Positions 46,774 through 52,617 of a DNA stretch of 64,000 bases are shown here, piece by piece (positions within the stretch are counted from its first letter, which is position 1; each line of letters begins with the position of its first letter). Below the pieces are notes generated by a model that did not search any database, was not told the origin of the DNA, and saw only the letters and a list, made by a program, of their open reading frames with translations. The translations under genes were made by a program, and so were the position numbers. The stretch comes from Escherichia coli (GTDB lineage: Bacteria > Pseudomonadota > Gammaproteobacteria > Enterobacterales > Enterobacteriaceae), in the NCBI RefSeq assembly GCF_001677475.2, contig NZ_CP015229.1; one strand, given 5' to 3'.

Positions 46774-46794
46774 AATTGTTATAACCCATATAAG

Positions 46795-46820
46795 GGCACC
46801 AGAAATGGTGCCTTTTTTAT
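46795..46820 (+). terminator. Rho-independent terminator after J
   Basis: GGCACC-AGAAAT-GGTGCC followed by TTTTTTATT. Confidence 0.7.
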
Positions 46821-46842: not shown

Positions 46843-47442
46843 ATGCGTAAACTTTATGCCGCCATTTTGTCCGCAGCCATTTGTCTGGCCGTATCCGGTG
46901 CGCTTGCATGGGCATCTGAACATCAGTCCACGCTGAGCGCGGGGTATCTTCATGCCCGGACCAACGTTCCCGGCAGTGATGATCTGAACGGGATTAACGT
47001 GAAATACCGTTATGAGTTTACGGATACGCTGGGGCTGGTGACGTCATTCAGCTATGCAGGAGACAAGAATCGCCAGCTGACCCGTTACAGCGATACCCGC
47101 TGGCATGAAGATTCCGTGCGTAACCGCTGGTTCAGCGTGATGGCGGGGCCGTCTGTGCGCGTGAATGAATGGTTCAGCGCGTATGCGATGGCGGGTATGG
47201 CTTACAGCCGTGTTTCGACTTTTTCCGGGGATTACCTTCGCGTAACTGACAACAAGGGGAAAACGCACGATGTGCTGACCGGAAGTGATGACGGTCGCCA
47301 CAGCAACACGTCTCTGGCGTGGGGGGCTGGCGTGCAGTTTAACCCGACCGAATCCGTGGCCATTGATATTGCTTATGAAGGTTCTGGCAGTGGTGACTGG
47401 CGCACTGACGGTTTCATCGTGGGTGTCGGTTATAAATTCTGA
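46843..47442 (+). CDS. lom: Lom-like outer-membrane beta-barrel protein (Ail/Lom family)
   Basis: 199-aa ORF with signal peptide and C-terminal ...GVGYKF; position J-lom-stf as in lambda. Confidence 0.85.
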   Translation: MRKLYAAILSAAICLAVSGALAWASEHQSTLSAGYLHARTNVPGSDDLNGINVKYRYEFTDTLGLVTSFSYAGDKNRQLTRYSDTRWHEDSVRNRWFSVMAGPSVRVNEWFSAYAMAGMAYSRVSTFSGDYLRVTDNKGKTHDVLTGSDDGRHSNTSLAWGAGVQFNPTESVAIDIAYEGSGSGDWRTDGFIVGVGYKF

Positions 47443-47467: not shown

Positions 47468-47496
47468 CAGCCCGCCGGTTCAGGTGGGCTTTTTTG
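47468..47496 (+). terminator. Terminator-like hairpin after lom
   Basis: AGCCCGCC...GGTGGGCT followed by TTTTTTG. Confidence 0.45.
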
Positions 47497-47506
47497 TGGG
47501 GGGAAT

Positions 47507-50446
47507 ATGGCAGTAAAGATTTCAGGTGTACTGAAAGACGGCACAGGAAAACCGGTACAGAACTGCACAATCCAGCTGAAAGCAAAACGTAACAGCACCA
47601 CGGTGGTGGTGAACACGCTGGCCTCAGAAAATCCGGATGAAGCCGGGCGTTATAGCATGGACGTTGAGTACGGTCAGTACAGCGTTATTCTGTTGGTGGA
47701 AGGATGCCCGCCGTCACATGCCGGGACCATCACCGTGTATGAAGATTCCCGACCCGGTACGCTGAATGATTTTCTCGGTGCCATGACGGAGGATGATGCC
47801 CGTCCGGAGGCTCTGCGCCGTTTTGAACTGATGGTGGAAGAGGTGGCGCGTAACGCGTCCGCGGTGGCACAGAACACGGCAGCCGCGAAGAAGTCAGCCG
47901 GCGATGCCGGCACATCTGCCCGTGAGGCGGCAACCCATGCGACTGATGCTGCAGATTCAGCACGTGCAGCCAGCACGTCAGCCGGACAGGCCGCGACGTC
48001 AGCTCAGGAGGCTTTTTCCTGCGCAGGAACGGCATCAGCAAAAGCCTCTGAGGCATCAAAAAGTGCTGCCGCTGCAGAGTCCTCAAAAAGCGCGGCGGCC
48101 ACCAGTGCCGGTGCCGCGAAAACGTCTGAAACGAATGCTGCAGCGTCACAACAATCAGCAGCCACTTCTGCATCCACCGCGACCACGAAAGCGTCAGAAG
48201 CTGCCACCTCAGCCCGGGATGCGTCGGCTTCAAAAGAGGCGGCAAAATCATCAGAAACGAGCGCAGCCTCGAGCGCAAGTAGTTCCGCTTCCTCGGCAAC
48301 AGCGGCAGCAAATTCTGCGAAGGCGGCAAAAACGTCCGAGACGAACGCCAGGTCTTCTGAAACGGCAGCGGAACAGAGCGCCTCAGCTGCGGCAGGTTCA
48401 GAAACTACCGCTGCATCATCAGCCCGTGAGGCGTCAGTCAAAGCGGAGGAGGCTGCAGCCAGTGCCACTGCCGCCGGAAAATCGGCAGAAAGCGCCGCAT
48501 CATCCGCTTCAACAGCCACAACGAAGGCTGGCGAAGCCACTGAACAGGCCAGCGCAGCAGCGAGGTCAGCTTCCGCAGCGAAGACATCCGAAACGAACGC
48601 GAAAGCGTCGGAAACCAGCGCAGAATCCTCAAAAACGGCTGCCGCATCGTCCGCCAGTTCGGCGGCGTCATCGGCCTCATCGGCGTCTGCTTCAAAAGAT
48701 GAGGCGACCAGACAAGCGTCAGCAGCGAAGGGCAGCGCCACGACGGCATCCACGAAGGCAACAGAGGCTGCTGGCAGTGCGACGGCGGCAGCACAGAGCA
48801 AAAGTACGGCGGAATCCGCGGCAACGCGCGCCGAGACAGCGGCAAAACGGGCAGAGGATATTGCATCCGCCGTGGCGCTTGAGGATGCGAGCACGACGAA
48901 AAAGGGGATAGTACAGCTCAGCAGTGCGACCAACAGCACTTCCGAGTCACAGGCGGCAACGCCAAAGGCAGTAAAAGCAGCCAATGACAATGCTGAGAAA
49001 CGTCTGCAGAAAGATCAGAACGGTGCGGATATCCCTGGCAAAGACACCTTTACGAAAAATATTGGTGCCTGCCGTGCCTTCGGTGGGTCAGTAAGCACAA
49101 CAACAGGAAACTGGACGACTGCACAGTTTATCGAGTGGCTGGATTCTCAGGGAGCATTTAACCATCCATACTGGATGTGCAAGGGTTCCTGGTCTTATGG
49201 CAATAATAAAATCATTACTGATACTGGCTGCGGTAATATTCATCTCGCCGGAGCTGTCATTGAAGTAATGGGGATAAAGTCAGCGATGACGATCCGCATT
49301 ACCACTCCGACTACATCCAGCGGTGGCGGAACAACCAACGCCCAGTTTACCTATATTAATCACGGAACAGATTATTCACCTGGCTGGCGAAGGGACTATA
49401 ACTCCAGAAATAAGCCAACGGCATCAGAGATCGGGGCGCTACCGTCAGGTGGAACAGCAGTATCATCAGTTAATCTGGCTTCAAAAGGTCGGGTAGCCGC
49501 GCTGACAGACAATACGCAGGGGGCAGCAGGTCTTGAGTTATACGAGGTGTATAACAACGGATATCCAACAGCGTATGGAAATATCATTCACCTGAAAGGG
49601 ATGACAGCCGTTGGCGAAGGTGAGTTACTCATCGGCTGGAGTGGTACAAGCGGTGCTCATGCTCCGGCATTTATTCGTTCACGACGGGATACGACCGACG
49701 CAAACTGGTCGCCGTGGGCGCAGCTTTACACCTCGGCTCATCCTCCTGCAGAGTTTTATCCAGTCGGTGCACCAATCCCGTGGCCATCAGATACCGTTCC
49801 GTCTGGCTATGCCCTGATGCAGGGGCAGACTTTTGACAAATCTGCATACCCGAAACTTGCAGCGGCTTATCCGTCAGGCGTTATTCCTGATATGCGTGGC
49901 TGGACGATTAAGGGCAAGCCCGCCAGTGGTCGTGCCGTATTGTCTCAGGAACAGGACGGCATTAAATCGCACACCCACAGCGCCAGCGCATCCAGTACGG
50001 ATTTGGGGACGAAAACCACATCGTCGTTTGATTACGGCACTAAATCCACGAATAACACCGGTGCGCATACCCATAGTTTAAGTGGCAGCACGAATGCGGC
50101 TGGTAATCACAGCCATAGAGATGGCCGTCGATTTAACCCCAGTGTTTTTAAAGATACTTATCAATATGGTTATACAAGCTCAGGTCAAAATACCTGGGGG
50201 GTACAAGGCTCAGTAGGTATGTCTACGGGGTGGTTAGCTAATACCAGTACAGATGGTAATCATAGCCACTCACTGTCCGGTACAGCAGTATCTGCAGGTG
50301 CACACGCGCATACTGTCGGTATTGGTGCTCATACGCACTCCGTTGCGATAGGGTCACATGGACACACCATCACCGTTAACGCTGCTGGTAACGCGGAAAA
50401 CACCGTCAAAAACATCGCATTTAACTATATTGTGAGGCTTGCATGA
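47507..50446 (+). CDS. stf: Side tail fibre protein Stf (Ala/Ser-rich repeats; C-terminal HxH repeats)
   Basis: 979-aa ORF; long low-complexity central region; C-terminus [18 protein letters not shown]...[15 protein letters not shown] typical of lambda-type Stf. Confidence 0.85.
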
Positions 50447-51345
50447 TTACGCTCATTCTTTCTGCACCAGTAACAGAAATGGCTGAAGCATTTAAGCGGG
50501 TATTCGCAAATGCAGATAATGTGAATATTGTCGGAAAGCCATTTGAAACAATCAGGGAATTTGACTGCATGGTAAGTGCGGCAAACAGTTTCGGCCTGAT
50601 GGATGGCGGTGTTGATGCCGCCATTACCGCATTCTTCGGTACTCAGTTACAGTCCCGCGTTCAGAATCATATTCTTCGTGAATATCTCGGCGAGCAGCCT
50701 GTAGGTTCTGCATTTGTTATTGAAACGGGGCATAATCATCATCCCTGGCTGGTACATGCGCCAACAATGCGTGTTCCGCTGACAATTGACGGAACAGACG
50801 CTGTATATAACGCAACCTGGGCCGCTCTGCTTGCCATCTTTCAGCACAATAAACACGCAACGACAGACAGGAAAATAAAAACGGTGGTATTCCCTGCAAT
50901 GGGAGCCGGATGTGGTCAGGTGCCGTTTGAAAGTGTTGCCCGGCAGATGAAGCAGGCATGGGATAACTTTAATAAAAAAACAGAATCAATTAACTGGGAA
51001 TACGCACAATCCCGCCAGTCGGCAGTATTTGGCACATATGCATACTGTCCGGGTAATTCTGTTTGCCGTTATGCGGATACTAAATATATTGGATGCGGCG
51101 ATTATCGGACGTATTGCTCACGTTCCGGGCAGGTCTGTATTAACCCTGAACATCAGGCTGATGATGTACTGATACAACATCAGGCTAATAACCGGTTTCG
51201 CCCTGGTTCGCATATACACCGGATTAATCCAGAAAATCCCGTAGGTAATGTCATCTCTGGCGCACATAGCCACGGAAGTAGCATCGTTATTGGTGCTCAC
51301 ACCCATACGCTCAATAAACAATATTCTGTCTCTGATATTAAGTAG
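50443..51345 (+). CDS. Macro-domain (ADP-ribose binding/hydrolase-like) protein with tail-fibre-like His-repeat C-terminus, inserted between stf and tfa
   Basis: ATGA overlap with stf stop; macro motifs [18 protein letters not shown] and [14 protein letters not shown]; C-terminal [18 protein letters not shown] echoes the Stf C-terminus; stop 8 nt before tfa ATG. Confidence 0.6.
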
Positions 51346-51353
51346 AGGTGAAC

Positions 51354-51929
51354 ATGGATTTCAGAATGAGTGAACAACCACGGACCATAACAATTTATAA
51401 TCTGCTGGCCGGAACTAATGAATTTATTGGTGAAGGTGATGCATATATTCCGCCTCATACAGGTCTGCCAGCAAACAGTACCGATATTGCACCGCCAGAT
51501 ATTCCGGCTGGCTTTGTGGCTGTTTTCAACAGTGATGAGGCATCGTGGCATCTCGTTGAAGACCATCGGGGTAAAACCGTCTATGACGTGGCTTCCGGCG
51601 ACGCGTTATTTATTTCTGAACTTGGCCCATTACCGGAAAATGTCACTTGGTTATCCCCGGAAGGGGAGTTTCAGAAGTGGAACGGCACAGCCTGGGTGAA
51701 GGATACGGAAGCAGAAAAACTGTTCCGGATCCGGGAGGCGGAAGAAACAAAAAACAACCTGATGCAGGTAGCCAGTGAGCATATTGCGCCGCTTCAGGAT
51801 GCTGCAGATCTGGAAATTGCAACGGAGGAAGAAATCTCGTTGCTGGAAGCATGGAAAAAGTATCGGGTATTGCTGAACCGTGTTGATACGTCAACTGCAC
51901 AGGATATTGAATGGCCAGCACTGCCGTAG
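51354..51929 (+). CDS. tfa: Tail fibre assembly protein Tfa
   Basis: [41 protein letters not shown]... matches recalled lambda Tfa; SD GAGGTG upstream. Confidence 0.9.
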
Positions 51930-52026: not shown

Positions 52027-52617
52027 TTATATGTCAGGTGTCTGAAGTTTTGCTTTGGCTCTTAAAATGGTTTGCCGCGAGGTTTTGAATTCCCGGGCAA
52101 TGGCACTTATACTTACACCTGACTTAATTCGTTCGAATACCACCTGTTTCTGTTCTTCATTTAACACAGGTGGTCGACCAAAACGTTTCCCTGCGCCCCG
52201 GGCTCTTACTATCCCGGAATGAGTGCGTTCAAGTAAAAGGTCTCGTTCAAATTCAGCGACTGCTGAAATTACTTGCATCATCATTTTTCCTGTTGGACTG
52301 GTCAGGTCAATGCCCCCCAATGCTAAGCAATGCACTCTGATACCTGTTTCGGTCAGTTGTTCCACTGTTTTCCTGATATCCATTGCATTACAACCAAGGC
52401 GATCCAGTTTTGTCACAATCAATTGATCACCACATTTCAGGCGAGCAAGCAACCGGTTAAAACCAGGACGCTCACTGGTTGCTGCTGAGCCGCTAATGTG
52501 TTCTTCGATTATTTGCTGAGGTTTGATTTTAAAACCTGCACTTTCGATTTCCCGGCGTTGATTTTCGGGGGTCTGATCCAGCGTTGATATCCGACAGTAA
52601 GCAAAAATTCGAGACAT
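52027..52617 (-). CDS. pin: Serine recombinase / DNA invertase (Pin/Hin/Gin family)
   Basis: 196-aa [18 protein letters not shown]... with catalytic Ser motif and C-terminal HTH; adjacent to tfa as in e14/Rac/Qin. Confidence 0.88.

What the first reader, a model, noticed from the sequence alone, without database searches (positions are those of the whole stretch)
50443..51345. Macro-domain protein with a tail-fibre-like C-terminus, inserted and translationally coupled between stf and tfa
In lambda-type tail-fibre operons stf is followed directly by tfa. Here a 300-codon ORF sits between them, overlapping the stf stop (ATGA) and ending 8 nt before tfa. Its first ~190 residues carry macro-domain motifs ([18 protein letters not shown]; [14 protein letters not shown]) and its last ~60 residues repeat the His-x-His motifs of the Stf C-terminus ([18 protein letters not shown]), implying acquisition by recombination within the fibre repeats. 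A late-expressed, possibly fibre-associated ADP-ribose-processing domain is not a feature of lambda, Rac, Qin or e14 as I recall them; it could reverse ADP-ribosylation by a host defence or be a structural oddity.
Basis: partly seen in the sequence, partly recalled or inferred. Interest (0 to 1): 0.85.

Follow-up and report, generated by a model that had tools for sequence, protein, structure and literature searches.

The report
Macro-domain gene cassette between tail-fibre genes
A real, well-conserved gene for an ADP-ribose-processing (macro-domain) enzyme with a short tail-fibre-like end is slotted between a prophage's side-tail-fibre gene and its chaperone gene; databases already annotate it in many enterobacterial phages, but its function has not been tested and is most likely counter-defence.

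Summary
ORF 50443..51345 (300 aa) overlaps the stf stop (ATGA) and ends 8 nt before the tfa ATG at 51354.

**Domains**
- Residues 1-180 are a macro domain (Pfam PF01661, E 1.5e-18; AF2 pLDDT above 90). The closest solved relative is yeast Ymx7/YMR087W, a Macro2-type ADP-ribose-1''-phosphatase. Its N80/D90/H145 positions align with N48/D58/H105 here, which are invariant in the family.
- Residues 200-235 carry four conserved cysteines.
- Residues 255-290 carry three G-x-H-x-H fibre-type repeats.

**Not a one-off**
- RefSeq names it "macro domain-containing protein", and it occurs in 127 of 5426 complete E. coli genomes.
- The same fibre-macro-tfa order is found in Gifsy-1, P2-like phages, P1-like phage-plasmids, and Erwinia and Citrobacter prophages.
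- It is an optional cassette. About 1300 E. coli genomes carry the same stf 3' end, and the macro-less locus I opened joins it directly to tfa.
- All three regions are under purifying selection.

The junctions lie at the stf stop and the tfa start, not inside the repeats, and the HxH tail is present throughout the family.

**Best reading, by inference only:** a late-expressed hydrolase or binder of ADP-ribose derivatives used for counter-defence, oligomerised or tethered through its tail. Interest is moderate.

The parts
47507..50446 (+). stf, side tail fibre gene (979 aa). Its C-terminal tip carries seven HxH motifs and ends ...[15 protein letters not shown].
   Evidence: (phrog_295 tail fibre, E 2.5e-231). 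The last 600 nt are 97-98% identical to stf genes of macro-less loci.
49970..50365 (+). HxH 'needle' region of Stf (residues 822-953): three ascending motifs, a variable tip, then four descending motifs.
   Evidence: One search gives the HxH positions. HxH motifs coordinate iron in the trimeric T4 gp37 tip (PMC11705849, summarising the gp37 crystal structure).
50433..50446 (+). Coupling junction: GAGG inside the last stf codons, 6 nt, then ATGA (macro start overlapping the stf stop).
   Evidence: The same junction GTGAGGCTTGCATGAT is found in the Erwinia and Citrobacter loci.
50443..51345 (+). Macro-domain protein gene (300 aa). It is an optional cassette inserted between stf and tfa.
   Evidence: (RefSeq WP_000631342.1). 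PHROG 2613, function unknown, E 1.2e-148.
50443..50982 (+). Macro domain, residues 1-180 (Pfam core 44-169). Active-site positions are N48, D54-G-G-V-D58, H105 and G154-A-G156-C-G158.
   Evidence: pLDDT above 90; 1NJR, E 1.1e-11; 1njr, E 4.4e-19. dN/dS 0.08-0.15.
50983..51162 (+). Linker helix (about residues 185-199) and a small beta-rich module with four conserved cysteines (C202, C208, C225, C232). Possibly metal-binding.
   Evidence: (pLDDT 75-80). No Pfam match. dN/dS 0.11-0.20.
51205..51312 (+). Fibre-type tail: three G-[SA]-H-x-H repeats (H257/259, H275/277, H286/288). The number of repeats varies from 1 to 5 across the family.
   Evidence: AF2 monomer pLDDT below 50. dN/dS 0.27-0.45.
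51354..51929 (+). tfa, tail fibre assembly gene. ATG 51354 is preceded by AGAGGTG, which begins within the macro stop codon.
   Evidence: (phrog_105, E 4.8e-99).

Best explanation
The ORF is a functional accessory gene cassette carried in the late tail-fibre operon. It is not a fibre fragment, and the fibre does not need it. It encodes a Macro2-type (Ymx7-like) macro domain able to bind ADP-ribose and probably to hydrolyse a 1''-linked ADP-ribose derivative. This is fused to a small four-cysteine module and a short run of fibre-type HxH repeats. It is translated by coupling to stf, from the Shine-Dalgarno sequence that macro-less loci use for tfa, so it is made late, together with Stf and Tfa. 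It spreads among lambdoid, P2-like, P1-like and other phages by homologous recombination through the very conserved stf 3' end and tfa 5' end that flank it. I infer that its job is counter-defence in the infected cytoplasm. It would remove or sequester an ADP-ribose-derived immune product, either a signal or toxic metabolite such as Appr-1''-p or His-ADPR-type molecules, or less likely an ADP-ribosyl adduct, at the time structural proteins such as the folded fibre-chaperone complex appear. I also infer that the HxH/Cys tail makes it oligomeric and metal-bound and may tether it to Stf/Tfa. Shown here: gene reality, fold, active-site conservation, cassette nature, fixed position and purifying selection. 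Inferred: substrate, counter-defence role and function of the tail.
For: Macro fold and family: Pfam Macro E 1.5e-18; AF2 pLDDT above 90 for residues 1-200; best solved relative 1NJR, yeast Ymx7 Appr-1''-pase, by Foldseek (E 1.1e-11) and by profile search (E 4.4e-19). N48, D58 and H105 align with Ymx7 N80, D90 and H145 and are invariant in the phage family. Across the 136-sequence wider alignment, N48 and D58 are conserved in at least 90% of sequences; H105 is not on that list. Selection: dN/dS 0.08-0.15 in the macro domain, 0.11-0.20 in the Cys module and 0.27-0.45 in the tail. Optional cassette: 127 genomes carry it, while about 1292 carry the same stf 3' end at 80% or more coverage. The macro-less locus L004 joins stf directly to tfa with identical flanks. 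Mobility: the identical or homologous gene sits in the same slot in Gifsy-1, SEN5, Chuche, a P1-like phage-plasmid, and Erwinia and Citrobacter prophages, always between ...[11 protein letters not shown] and M[DT]F[RK]MSE. Accessory or counter-defence character of relatives: the nearest tail-less relative (P0124, 64% identity) lies among ParB_N and methyltransferase genes upstream of the terminase, and jumbo-phage homologues lie in non-structural regions. Precedents from the literature: phage macro domains AdfM of PhiKZ and T4 neutralise DarT2 (PMC13309987; 10.1101/2025.11.20.689424); phage Macro domains are predicted mostly to target soluble ADPr derivatives (PMC9503650); folded side tail fibre plus chaperone determines activation of type II Thoeris, which signals with His-ADPR (10.64898/2026.06.04.730250).
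Against: No activity, substrate or phenotype is known for any member, and I found no paper on this arrangement. The protein is not DarG/AdfM-like: NCBIfam DarG E 0.067, PADLOC DarG E 0.0048, and no BLAST similarity to PhiKZ gp104. The only proven phage-macro mechanism therefore cannot simply be transferred. Late expression is an odd time for a counter-defence enzyme unless the trigger is itself late or the protein is carried in the virion. Soluble counter-defence alone does not explain the strict link between having a fibre-type tail and sitting in the fibre locus. The only studied Macro2-type enzyme is a housekeeping Appr-1''-p phosphatase (PMC6397177).
Confidence: 0.4

Rival explanations
1. 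Fibre-associated virion component. With help from Tfa, the HxH tail forms a short metal-bound trimer or packs against the Stf needle or collar. Three macro domains are then displayed on each side fibre, acting as a binding or enzymatic module at the cell surface or being carried into the next infection.
For: Only family members with the Cys/HxH tail sit in the fibre locus, while the nearest tail-less relative sits elsewhere. The position and the 4-nt overlaps with fibre and tfa persist at 62-70% protein identity, where synonymous sites are saturated. HxH motifs are the iron-binding trimer signature of gp37/Stf tips (PMC11705849). The AF2 monomer model leaves the tail unstructured, as would be expected for a segment that folds only in an oligomer. 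NCBI often labels members 'phage tail protein'.
Against: In the loci compared, the same Stf tip and a near-identical Tfa are present without the gene, and most genomes carrying this stf 3' end lack it, so no fibre adaptation accompanies it. No N-terminal fibre-attachment sequence exists, because residues 1-180 are all macro fold. No ADP-ribose-containing surface structure is known in E. coli (my knowledge). The 'tail protein' label appears to derive from gene position and has spread to jumbo-phage homologues in non-structural regions. Pfam Phage_fiber is not significant on the tail.
Confidence: 0.2
2. Metabolic housekeeping enzyme. It acts as an ADP-ribose-1''-phosphate phosphatase, like yeast Ymx7, that clears NAD-derived by-products during phage growth, with no link to immunity. 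The tail is merely a tolerated appendage.
For: The closest characterised protein is Ymx7/YMR087W. The Macro2-type clade is reported to convert Appr-1''-p to ADP-ribose without de-MARylation (PMC6397177). The core family includes about 1300 clusters of roughly 200-aa stand-alone proteins in cells and viruses.
Against: I noted no Tpt1/KptA or RNA-ligase genes beside the module in the loci I examined. The gene is sporadic, present in under 10% of otherwise equivalent fibre modules, which fits conflict genes better than metabolism. The tail is conserved and selected.
Confidence: 0.15
3. Lysogen-benefit gene (moron-like). It is expressed from the prophage to protect the host, for example by reversing ADP-ribosylation by ART toxins or by superinfecting phages such as T4 Alt/ModA/ModB.
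For: It is an optional insertion between conserved late genes, next to the classical moron lom. Prophage carriage is common.
Against: There is no promoter-like site upstream and no terminator flanking it. The only promoter-like match lies inside the ORF, and hits in the region are fewer than in shuffled sequence. The ATGA overlap ties its translation to the late gene stf. Lytic-capable phages such as Chuche, SEN4 and SEN5 keep it.
Confidence: 0.08
4. Non-functional relic: a frameshifted stf/tfa fragment or a decaying insertion.
For: The HxH tail resembles fibre sequence, and tail length varies.
Against: The ORF is intact at 80% or more coverage in 126 of 127 E. coli genomes. dN/dS is far below 1 in all regions. 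The macro model is confident and the active site invariant. The macro frame has a stop 7 codons upstream of its ATG with no slippery site in between, so there is no Stf-macro fusion (my reading).
Confidence: 0.02

Closest known systems
Yeast Ymx7/YMR087W, Macro2-type ADP-ribose-1''-monophosphatase (PDB 1NJR, 1TXZ, 1TY8)
   Same: It is the best structural and profile match. It shares the V-S-x-x-N-S-[FY]-G...G-G-x-D motif and the H-x-P-T motif. Ymx7 N80, D90 and H145 align with N48, D58 and H105.
   Different: Identity is only about 21%. Ymx7 is a cellular stand-alone enzyme with no Cys/HxH tail and no phage or fibre context. Its activity has not been tested for the phage protein.
AdfM, the phage anti-DarT2 macrodomain (PhiKZ gp104, T4 Tk.4)
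   Same: It is a phage-encoded macro domain used as a stand-alone accessory or counter-defence enzyme (PMC13309987; 10.1101/2025.11.20.689424).
   Different: It belongs to a different macro clade (DarG/ALC1-like). There is no significant sequence similarity. AdfM lacks a fibre tail and is not in a fibre operon.
Stand-alone Macro2-like proteins of jumbo phages and giant viruses (Noxifer gp265, PhiPA3 gp271, phiRSL1 ORF054, Mimivirus and Marseillevirus macro proteins)
   Same: The macro core is the same, at 30-38% identity, with Foldseek E 1e-13 to 1e-19. All are uncharacterised.
   Different: They are about 180-250 aa, lack the Cys/HxH extension and are encoded in non-structural regions.
T4 gp37 / lambda Stf receptor-binding tip (HxH iron-binding needle)
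   Same: The tail has G-A-H-x-H repeats with the same 6-8-residue spacing as the descending strand of Stf.
   Different: It has only 1-5 repeats, no tip domain, no ...[11 protein letters not shown] end and no fibre shaft. Trimerisation and metal binding have not been shown.
T2/S16 gp38-type adhesins and Tfa/gp38 chaperones (genes immediately downstream of a fibre gene)
   Same: The genomic logic is the same: a small gene directly after the fibre gene, co-translated with it.
   Different: There is no sequence or fold relationship, and the fibre module also occurs without this gene.

Membership tests
Macro domain superfamily (Pfam PF01661) | Significant match to the family profile | tested here: met
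   E 1.5e-18, residues 44-169, covering model positions 1-118 of 118.
Macro domain superfamily (Pfam PF01661) | Three-layer alpha/beta macro fold | tested here: met
   AF2 pLDDT above 90 over residues 1-200. 205 PDB macro-type matches at E of 0.001 or better.
Macro domain superfamily (Pfam PF01661) | ADP-ribose-binding loops (N-x6-G-G-x-D loop 1 and a G-x-G-containing loop 2) | tested here: met
   N48 and D54-G-G-V-D58, and G154-A-G156-C-G158, are invariant in the family. N48, G56, D58 and G158 are conserved in at least 90% of 136 wider relatives.
Macro domain superfamily (Pfam PF01661) | Binding or hydrolysis of ADP-ribose derivatives | not testable with these tools
   Needs biochemistry.
Macro2-type clade (Ymx7/YMR087W-like Appr-1''-pase) | Closest relationship to Ymx7 rather than to the MacroD, macroH2A, ALC1/DarG or PARG types | tested here: met
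   1NJR is first by Foldseek (E 1.1e-11, against 2e-7 for the next hit) and by profile search (E 4.4e-19, against 1.2e-11). There is a weak Pfam Macro_2 hit at E 4.3e-4.
Macro2-type clade (Ymx7/YMR087W-like Appr-1''-pase) | Conservation of Ymx7 N80, D90 and H145 (recalled by me as the proposed catalytic residues) | tested here: met
   The alignment maps them to N48, D58 and H105, all invariant. Their catalytic role comes from my memory of the Ymx7 structure paper and was not checked here.
Macro2-type clade (Ymx7/YMR087W-like Appr-1''-pase) | Appr-1''-p phosphatase activity | not testable with these tools
   Requires an enzyme assay.
DarG / AdfM anti-DarT macrodomains | Match to DarG family models above cut-off, or similarity to AdfM | tested here: not met
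   NCBIfam DarG scores 12.4 bits against a cut-off of 250. PADLOC DarG E 0.0048 over 38 residues. BLASTP against PhiKZ gp104 gives E 0.72.
gp37/Stf-type HxH fibre needle | Repeated HxH motifs at fibre spacing | tested here: met
   There are three motifs here and 1-5 across the family. Local BLASTP to Stf gives E 8e-4.
gp37/Stf-type HxH fibre needle | Significant match to the Pfam Phage_fiber repeat (PF03335) | tested here: not met
   E 7.5. No Pfam match for the tail alone.
gp37/Stf-type HxH fibre needle | Trimer with octahedrally coordinated metal ions | not testable with these tools
   Only monomer prediction was available. The tail has pLDDT below 50.
Moron (autonomous accessory gene in a late operon) | Optional insertion between genes that are adjacent in related phages | tested here: met
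Moron (autonomous accessory gene in a late operon) | Own promoter and terminator | tested here: not met
   No flanking promoter-like or terminator-like site was found, and the ATGA overlap ties it to stf. The consensus scan is crude.
Tail fibre assembly proteins / gp38 adhesins | Homology to Caudo_TAP, Tfa or gp38 families | tested here: not met
   The only PHROG and Pfam hits are to macro families.

The most novel reading that the evidence does not exclude
The macro protein is an antidote encoded with its trigger. Folding of the side tail fibre with its chaperone is what ADP-ribose-based immunity (TIR/Thoeris-type or an unknown ART) senses or targets. The phage has placed, in the same translational unit, a Macro2-type enzyme whose fibre-mimicking HxH tail brings it to the Stf-Tfa assembly complex, or onto the finished fibre as an iron-bound trimer. 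There it destroys the ADPr-derived signal or adduct at its source. This would be the first macro domain physically tied to a phage tail fibre, and the first assigned biological role for the Macro2-type clade in immunity.
Probability: 0.15. Interest if true: 0.8.

Novelty: new variant of a known kind. Interest (0 to 1): 0.5.

Why it matters
Phage macro domains have only recently been shown to be counter-defence enzymes (AdfM against DarT2), and those belong to a different clade. This family is common in Salmonella (Gifsy-1, present in strain LT2) and in E. coli prophages and phage-plasmids. It travels with the host-range module and combines a barely studied macro clade with a fibre-like metal-binding tail. 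If it counters an ADP-ribose-based defence, it would be an easily testable accessory gene in model strains. It would also link host-range cassettes to immune evasion and would matter for engineering tail-fibre modules in therapeutic phages. If it is virion-borne, it would be a new kind of fibre decoration.

Tried and rejected
1. Stf-macro fusion by frameshift: rejected. The macro frame has TAA at 50422, 7 codons before the ATG, with no slippery run in between.
2. Invertible segment driven by the downstream pin-like recombinase, which could affect expression: no inverted repeats of 18 nt or more flank the module.
3. Recombination inside the HxH repeats as the origin of this copy: rejected by the junction alignment. 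DNA repeats between the stf 3' end and the macro tail are only 18-22 nt at 72-86% identity.
4. Homology search with the C-terminal 115 aa alone returned only fragments of the same family. Pfam found nothing. tblastn against phages found only the family itself plus a remnant in SEN34.
5. The first AF2 run, on 17 close homologues, was unusable (pLDDT 50). It was repeated with a 136-sequence alignment.
6. 'Tail protein' labels on jumbo-phage homologues were checked as possible evidence of virion association. Those genes lie among non-structural hypothetical genes, so the label appears to have been copied by annotation transfer.
7. Composition: no GC anomaly marks the cassette.
8. Literature searches for this arrangement found nothing specific.
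Full report
**Observation**

The window contains a 300-codon ORF at 50443..51345 on the + strand. Its ATG overlaps the TGA of the 979-aa side tail fibre gene stf (47507..50446) as ATGA. A GAGG lies 6 nt upstream, inside the last stf codons. The ORF stops at 51345.

The tail fibre assembly gene tfa starts at ATG 51354. This start is supported by RefSeq and by the N-termini of homologues ([23 protein letters not shown]). It leaves 8 nt that contain AGAGGTG. The GTG at 51348 listed mechanically by the ORF listing is not the likely start. The description is accurate.

**Is it a macro domain?**

Yes.
- Pfam Macro (PF01661) matches residues 44-169 end to end at E 1.5e-18.
- NCBIfam ADP-ribose-binding and O-acetyl-ADP-ribose deacetylase models hit weakly, all below their equivalog cut-offs.
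- PHROG 2613 (function unknown) covers residues 1-270 at E 1e-148.

A first AlphaFold2 run on 17 close homologues failed (pLDDT 50). I then searched 1.84 billion representative proteins, which gave 1306 clusters at E below 1e-10, mostly stand-alone proteins of about 200 aa plus some eukaryotic multidomain proteins. From these I built a 136-sequence alignment (A3). The new model has pLDDT above 90 for residues 1-200, 75-80 for 200-240 and below 50 for 241-300.

Foldseek against the PDB puts yeast Ymx7/YMR087W (1NJR, an ADP-ribose-1''-monophosphatase) first at E 1.1e-11. The next hits (PARP9 macro 1, TTHA0132, macroH2A, MacroD-type enzymes) are near 2e-7. A profile of A3 finds 1njr at E 4.4e-19. 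According to PMC6397177, YMR087W is the only studied member of the Macro2-type clade, and it converts Appr-1''-p to ADP-ribose without de-MARylating activity.

The HMMER alignment maps Ymx7 N80, D90 and H145 onto N48, D58 and H105 of this protein. I recall these Ymx7 residues as the proposed catalytic residues, but I did not verify that here. N48, D58 and H105 are invariant in the phage family, as are D54-G-G-V-D58 and G154-A-G156-x-G158. N48, G56, D58 and G158 are conserved in at least 90% of the wider 136-sequence set.

The protein is not of the DarG/AdfM type. NCBIfam DarG scores 12 bits against a cut-off of 250, PADLOC DarG gives E 0.0048, and there is no BLAST similarity to PhiKZ gp104.

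**The C-terminal extension**

The extension is a property of the family, not of this copy. An alignment of 17 members from Escherichia, Salmonella, Erwinia and Citrobacter, together with the tails of 107 members, shows three consecutive features after the macro core:
- a helix;
- a segment with four conserved cysteines (C202, C208, C225, C232) in the pattern YCP..x..C...YIGxGDYRTYCxxSGxxCI..HQxDD;
- one to five G-A-H-x-H repeats, followed by variable ends.

G255 and H277 are invariant, and H257 and H259 are present in at least 90% of members. In the three variants I examined at nucleotide level (Gifsy-1, SEN5 and the Erwinia locus), the last codons overlap the tfa ribosome-binding site and start codon.

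The repeat spacing matches the descending HxH strand of Stf, and BLASTP of tail against Stf gives 11/21 identities (E 8e-4). The Pfam Phage_fiber repeat model is not significant (E 7.5), and the tail alone matches no Pfam family. Stf itself has seven HxH motifs. That is the number of iron ions that HxH pairs coordinate in the trimeric T4 gp37 tip (PMC11705849, summarising the crystal structure).

Nei-Gojobori estimates against Chuche, Gifsy-1 and SEN5 give dN/dS of 0.08-0.15 for the macro domain, 0.11-0.20 for the linker and Cys module, and 0.27-0.45 for the tail. The whole ORF is therefore under purifying selection and is not a decaying fibre fragment.

**Distribution and genomic logic**

The gene is 80-100% identical in 127 of 5426 complete E. 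coli genomes (108 chromosomal and 22 plasmid places). RefSeq annotates it there as "macro domain-containing protein" (WP_000631342.1 for the identical protein). PLSDB holds 33 plasmid records with it, 30 of them non-mobilizable; the one I opened is a P1-like phage-plasmid.

The same order, fibre then macro then tfa, occurs in many places:
- Gifsy-1 of S. Typhimurium LT2, whose record already notes pfam01661;
- the P2-like phages SEN4/SEN5 and Chuche;
- a P1-like phage-plasmid that carries the identical protein;
- Baseplate_J-type prophages of Erwinia and Citrobacter, where 4-nt overlaps occur at both ends.

About 1700 protein clusters at 90% identity match the protein, and the best-scoring ones are from Escherichia, Salmonella, Erwinia and Citrobacter.

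In every case the upstream fibre ends ...[10 protein letters not shown][IL]VRLA and the downstream Tfa begins M[DT]F[RK]MS, while the receptor-binding tip between the HxH strands differs.

The last 600 nt of this stf occur at 80% or more coverage in about 1292 E. coli genomes, and most listed hits show no macro gene under the match. The macro-less locus I opened (L004) is 97.8% identical up to 2 nt before the stop, and there stf runs directly into tfa as GCATAATGGCATTCAGAATGAGT. The window reads GCATGATTACG...[macro]...TAGAGGTGAACATGGATTTCAGAATGAGT.

The macro ORF is therefore a clean, optional cassette between two very conserved sequences. Those flanks give it handles for homologous exchange among unrelated tail types. 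The fibre and the chaperone need no change to accommodate it.

I found no promoter-like or terminator-like site flanking the cassette and no compositional anomaly. It looks co-transcribed and co-translated with the late fibre genes.

**What relatives say**

The nearest member without the tail (P0124, 207 aa, 64% identity) is also in a phage. It lies among ParB_N-domain and methyltransferase genes upstream of the large terminase, which is a typical accessory region. Jumbo-phage homologues (Noxifer gp265, phiRSL1 ORF054) are labelled "tail protein" or "tail assembly-like", yet they sit among non-structural hypothetical genes. I take that label to be annotation transfer from the enterobacterial genes, not evidence that the protein is in the virion. 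BFVD fold matches are to jumbo-phage and giant-virus macro proteins.

**Mechanism**

What is shown: a selected gene; a Macro2-type fold with an intact ADP-ribose pocket; late, coupled expression signals; cassette behaviour; and a fibre-type Cys/HxH tail found in every fibre-locus copy examined, while the nearest tail-less relative lies elsewhere.

What I infer as the best explanation (confidence about 0.4): the protein is an accessory counter-defence enzyme or binder. It removes an ADP-ribose-derived product of host immunity late in infection, more likely a soluble 1''-substituted derivative than a protein or DNA adduct. Its tail provides metal-dependent oligomerisation and perhaps tethering to Stf/Tfa.

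Support from the literature:
- Phage macro domains of another clade (AdfM) neutralise DarT2 (PMC13309987; 10.1101/2025.11.20.689424).
- A survey of viral NAD/ADPr systems argues that phage Macro domains mostly target soluble ADPr derivatives and are often encoded among morphogenesis genes (PMC9503650).
- In Pseudomonas N4-like phages, the folded side tail fibre with its chaperone determines activation of type II Thoeris, whose signal is His-ADPR (10.64898/2026.06.04.730250). This offers a rationale for placing an ADPr-processing enzyme in the same translational unit as stf and tfa.

None of this has been tested for this family.

Rivals:
- A true fibre-associated virion component (0.2). The link between tail and locus and the persistence of the position favour it. 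The optional nature of the cassette, the lack of any attachment domain and the absence of a known ADPr-containing surface target argue against it.
- A housekeeping Appr-1''-p phosphatase (0.15).
- A lysogen-benefit gene (0.08). The lack of a promoter and the coupling to a late gene argue against it.
- A relic (0.02), refuted by the selection and fold data.

The observation and the macro assignment are right. The claim that the tail implies acquisition by recombination within the fibre repeats is not supported. The arrangement is not rare or unannotated, although I found no paper that discusses it.

**Verdict**

This is a real feature that is already annotated at the domain level and is widely distributed. 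Its function is uncharacterised. Its architecture (Macro2-type core, Cys4 module and fibre HxH tail) and its fixed slot in the host-range module make it a new variant among phage macro-domain accessory proteins. Interest is moderate (0.5). It would rise sharply if the protein proves to be fibre-bound or to counter an immune signal triggered by the fibre.

Noticed in passing
window 47900-48990, both strands: The central part of stf encodes a long Ala/Ser/Thr/Glu-rich low-complexity repeat region with about 60% GC. It creates long spurious ORFs in other frames, for example 47904..48911 (+, 335 aa, Arg/Pro/Gln-rich) and 48004..48990 (-, 328 aa). These are frame artefacts, not genes.
   Followed up: no
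window 52027-52617 (-): A 196-aa Pin/Gin-type serine recombinase lies tail-to-tail with tfa and is followed by ydfK-like and ynfT-like genes, as in Rac and Qin. I found no inverted repeats of 18 nt or more flanking the fibre module, so it looks like an orphan invertase with no invertible segment here.
   Followed up: partly
window 46843-47442 (+), with hairpins at 46792-46815 and 47469-47490: An Ail/Lom-family outer-membrane protein gene lies between J and stf and is bracketed by terminator-like hairpins. This is the classical lom moron arrangement and contrasts with the signal-less macro cassette.
   Followed up: no
window 51348 vs 51354: The mechanical ORF call starts tfa at GTG 51348. Homologues and RefSeq support ATG 51354 (MDFRMSEQ...).
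   Followed up: yes
L008 (Salmonella phage SEN34) 4001-4153: A 51-residue match (61% identity) to the Cys-rich module of the macro protein lies beside an O-acetyltransferase gene, downstream of a fibre-tfa pair that has no macro gene. It overlaps the start of a small hypothetical ORF and is probably a remnant of a former cassette.
   Followed up: partly
protein P0018 (463 aa, one 8.4-kb Logan contig): A chimera in which a ParM/StbA-like N-terminal part (PF06406 and related families) is fused in frame to the macro protein from about residue 62 onward. It may be an assembly artefact or a rearrangement on a phage-plasmid.
   Followed up: no
L005 (P1-like phage-plasmid NZ_JBLWKF010000003.1) 7493-8038 (-): A serine acetyltransferase gene on the opposite strand overlaps the 3' end of tfa, immediately after the fibre-macro-tfa module. 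The usual P1 invertible C-segment partner genes are not annotated there.
   Followed up: no
L007 (Logan contig SRR27421442_71) 2104-6613: The closest tail-less relative of the macro protein sits in a cluster of ParB_N - methyltransferase - macro - unknown - ParB_N genes just upstream of the terminase. This could be an anti-defence island worth examining on its own.
   Followed up: no
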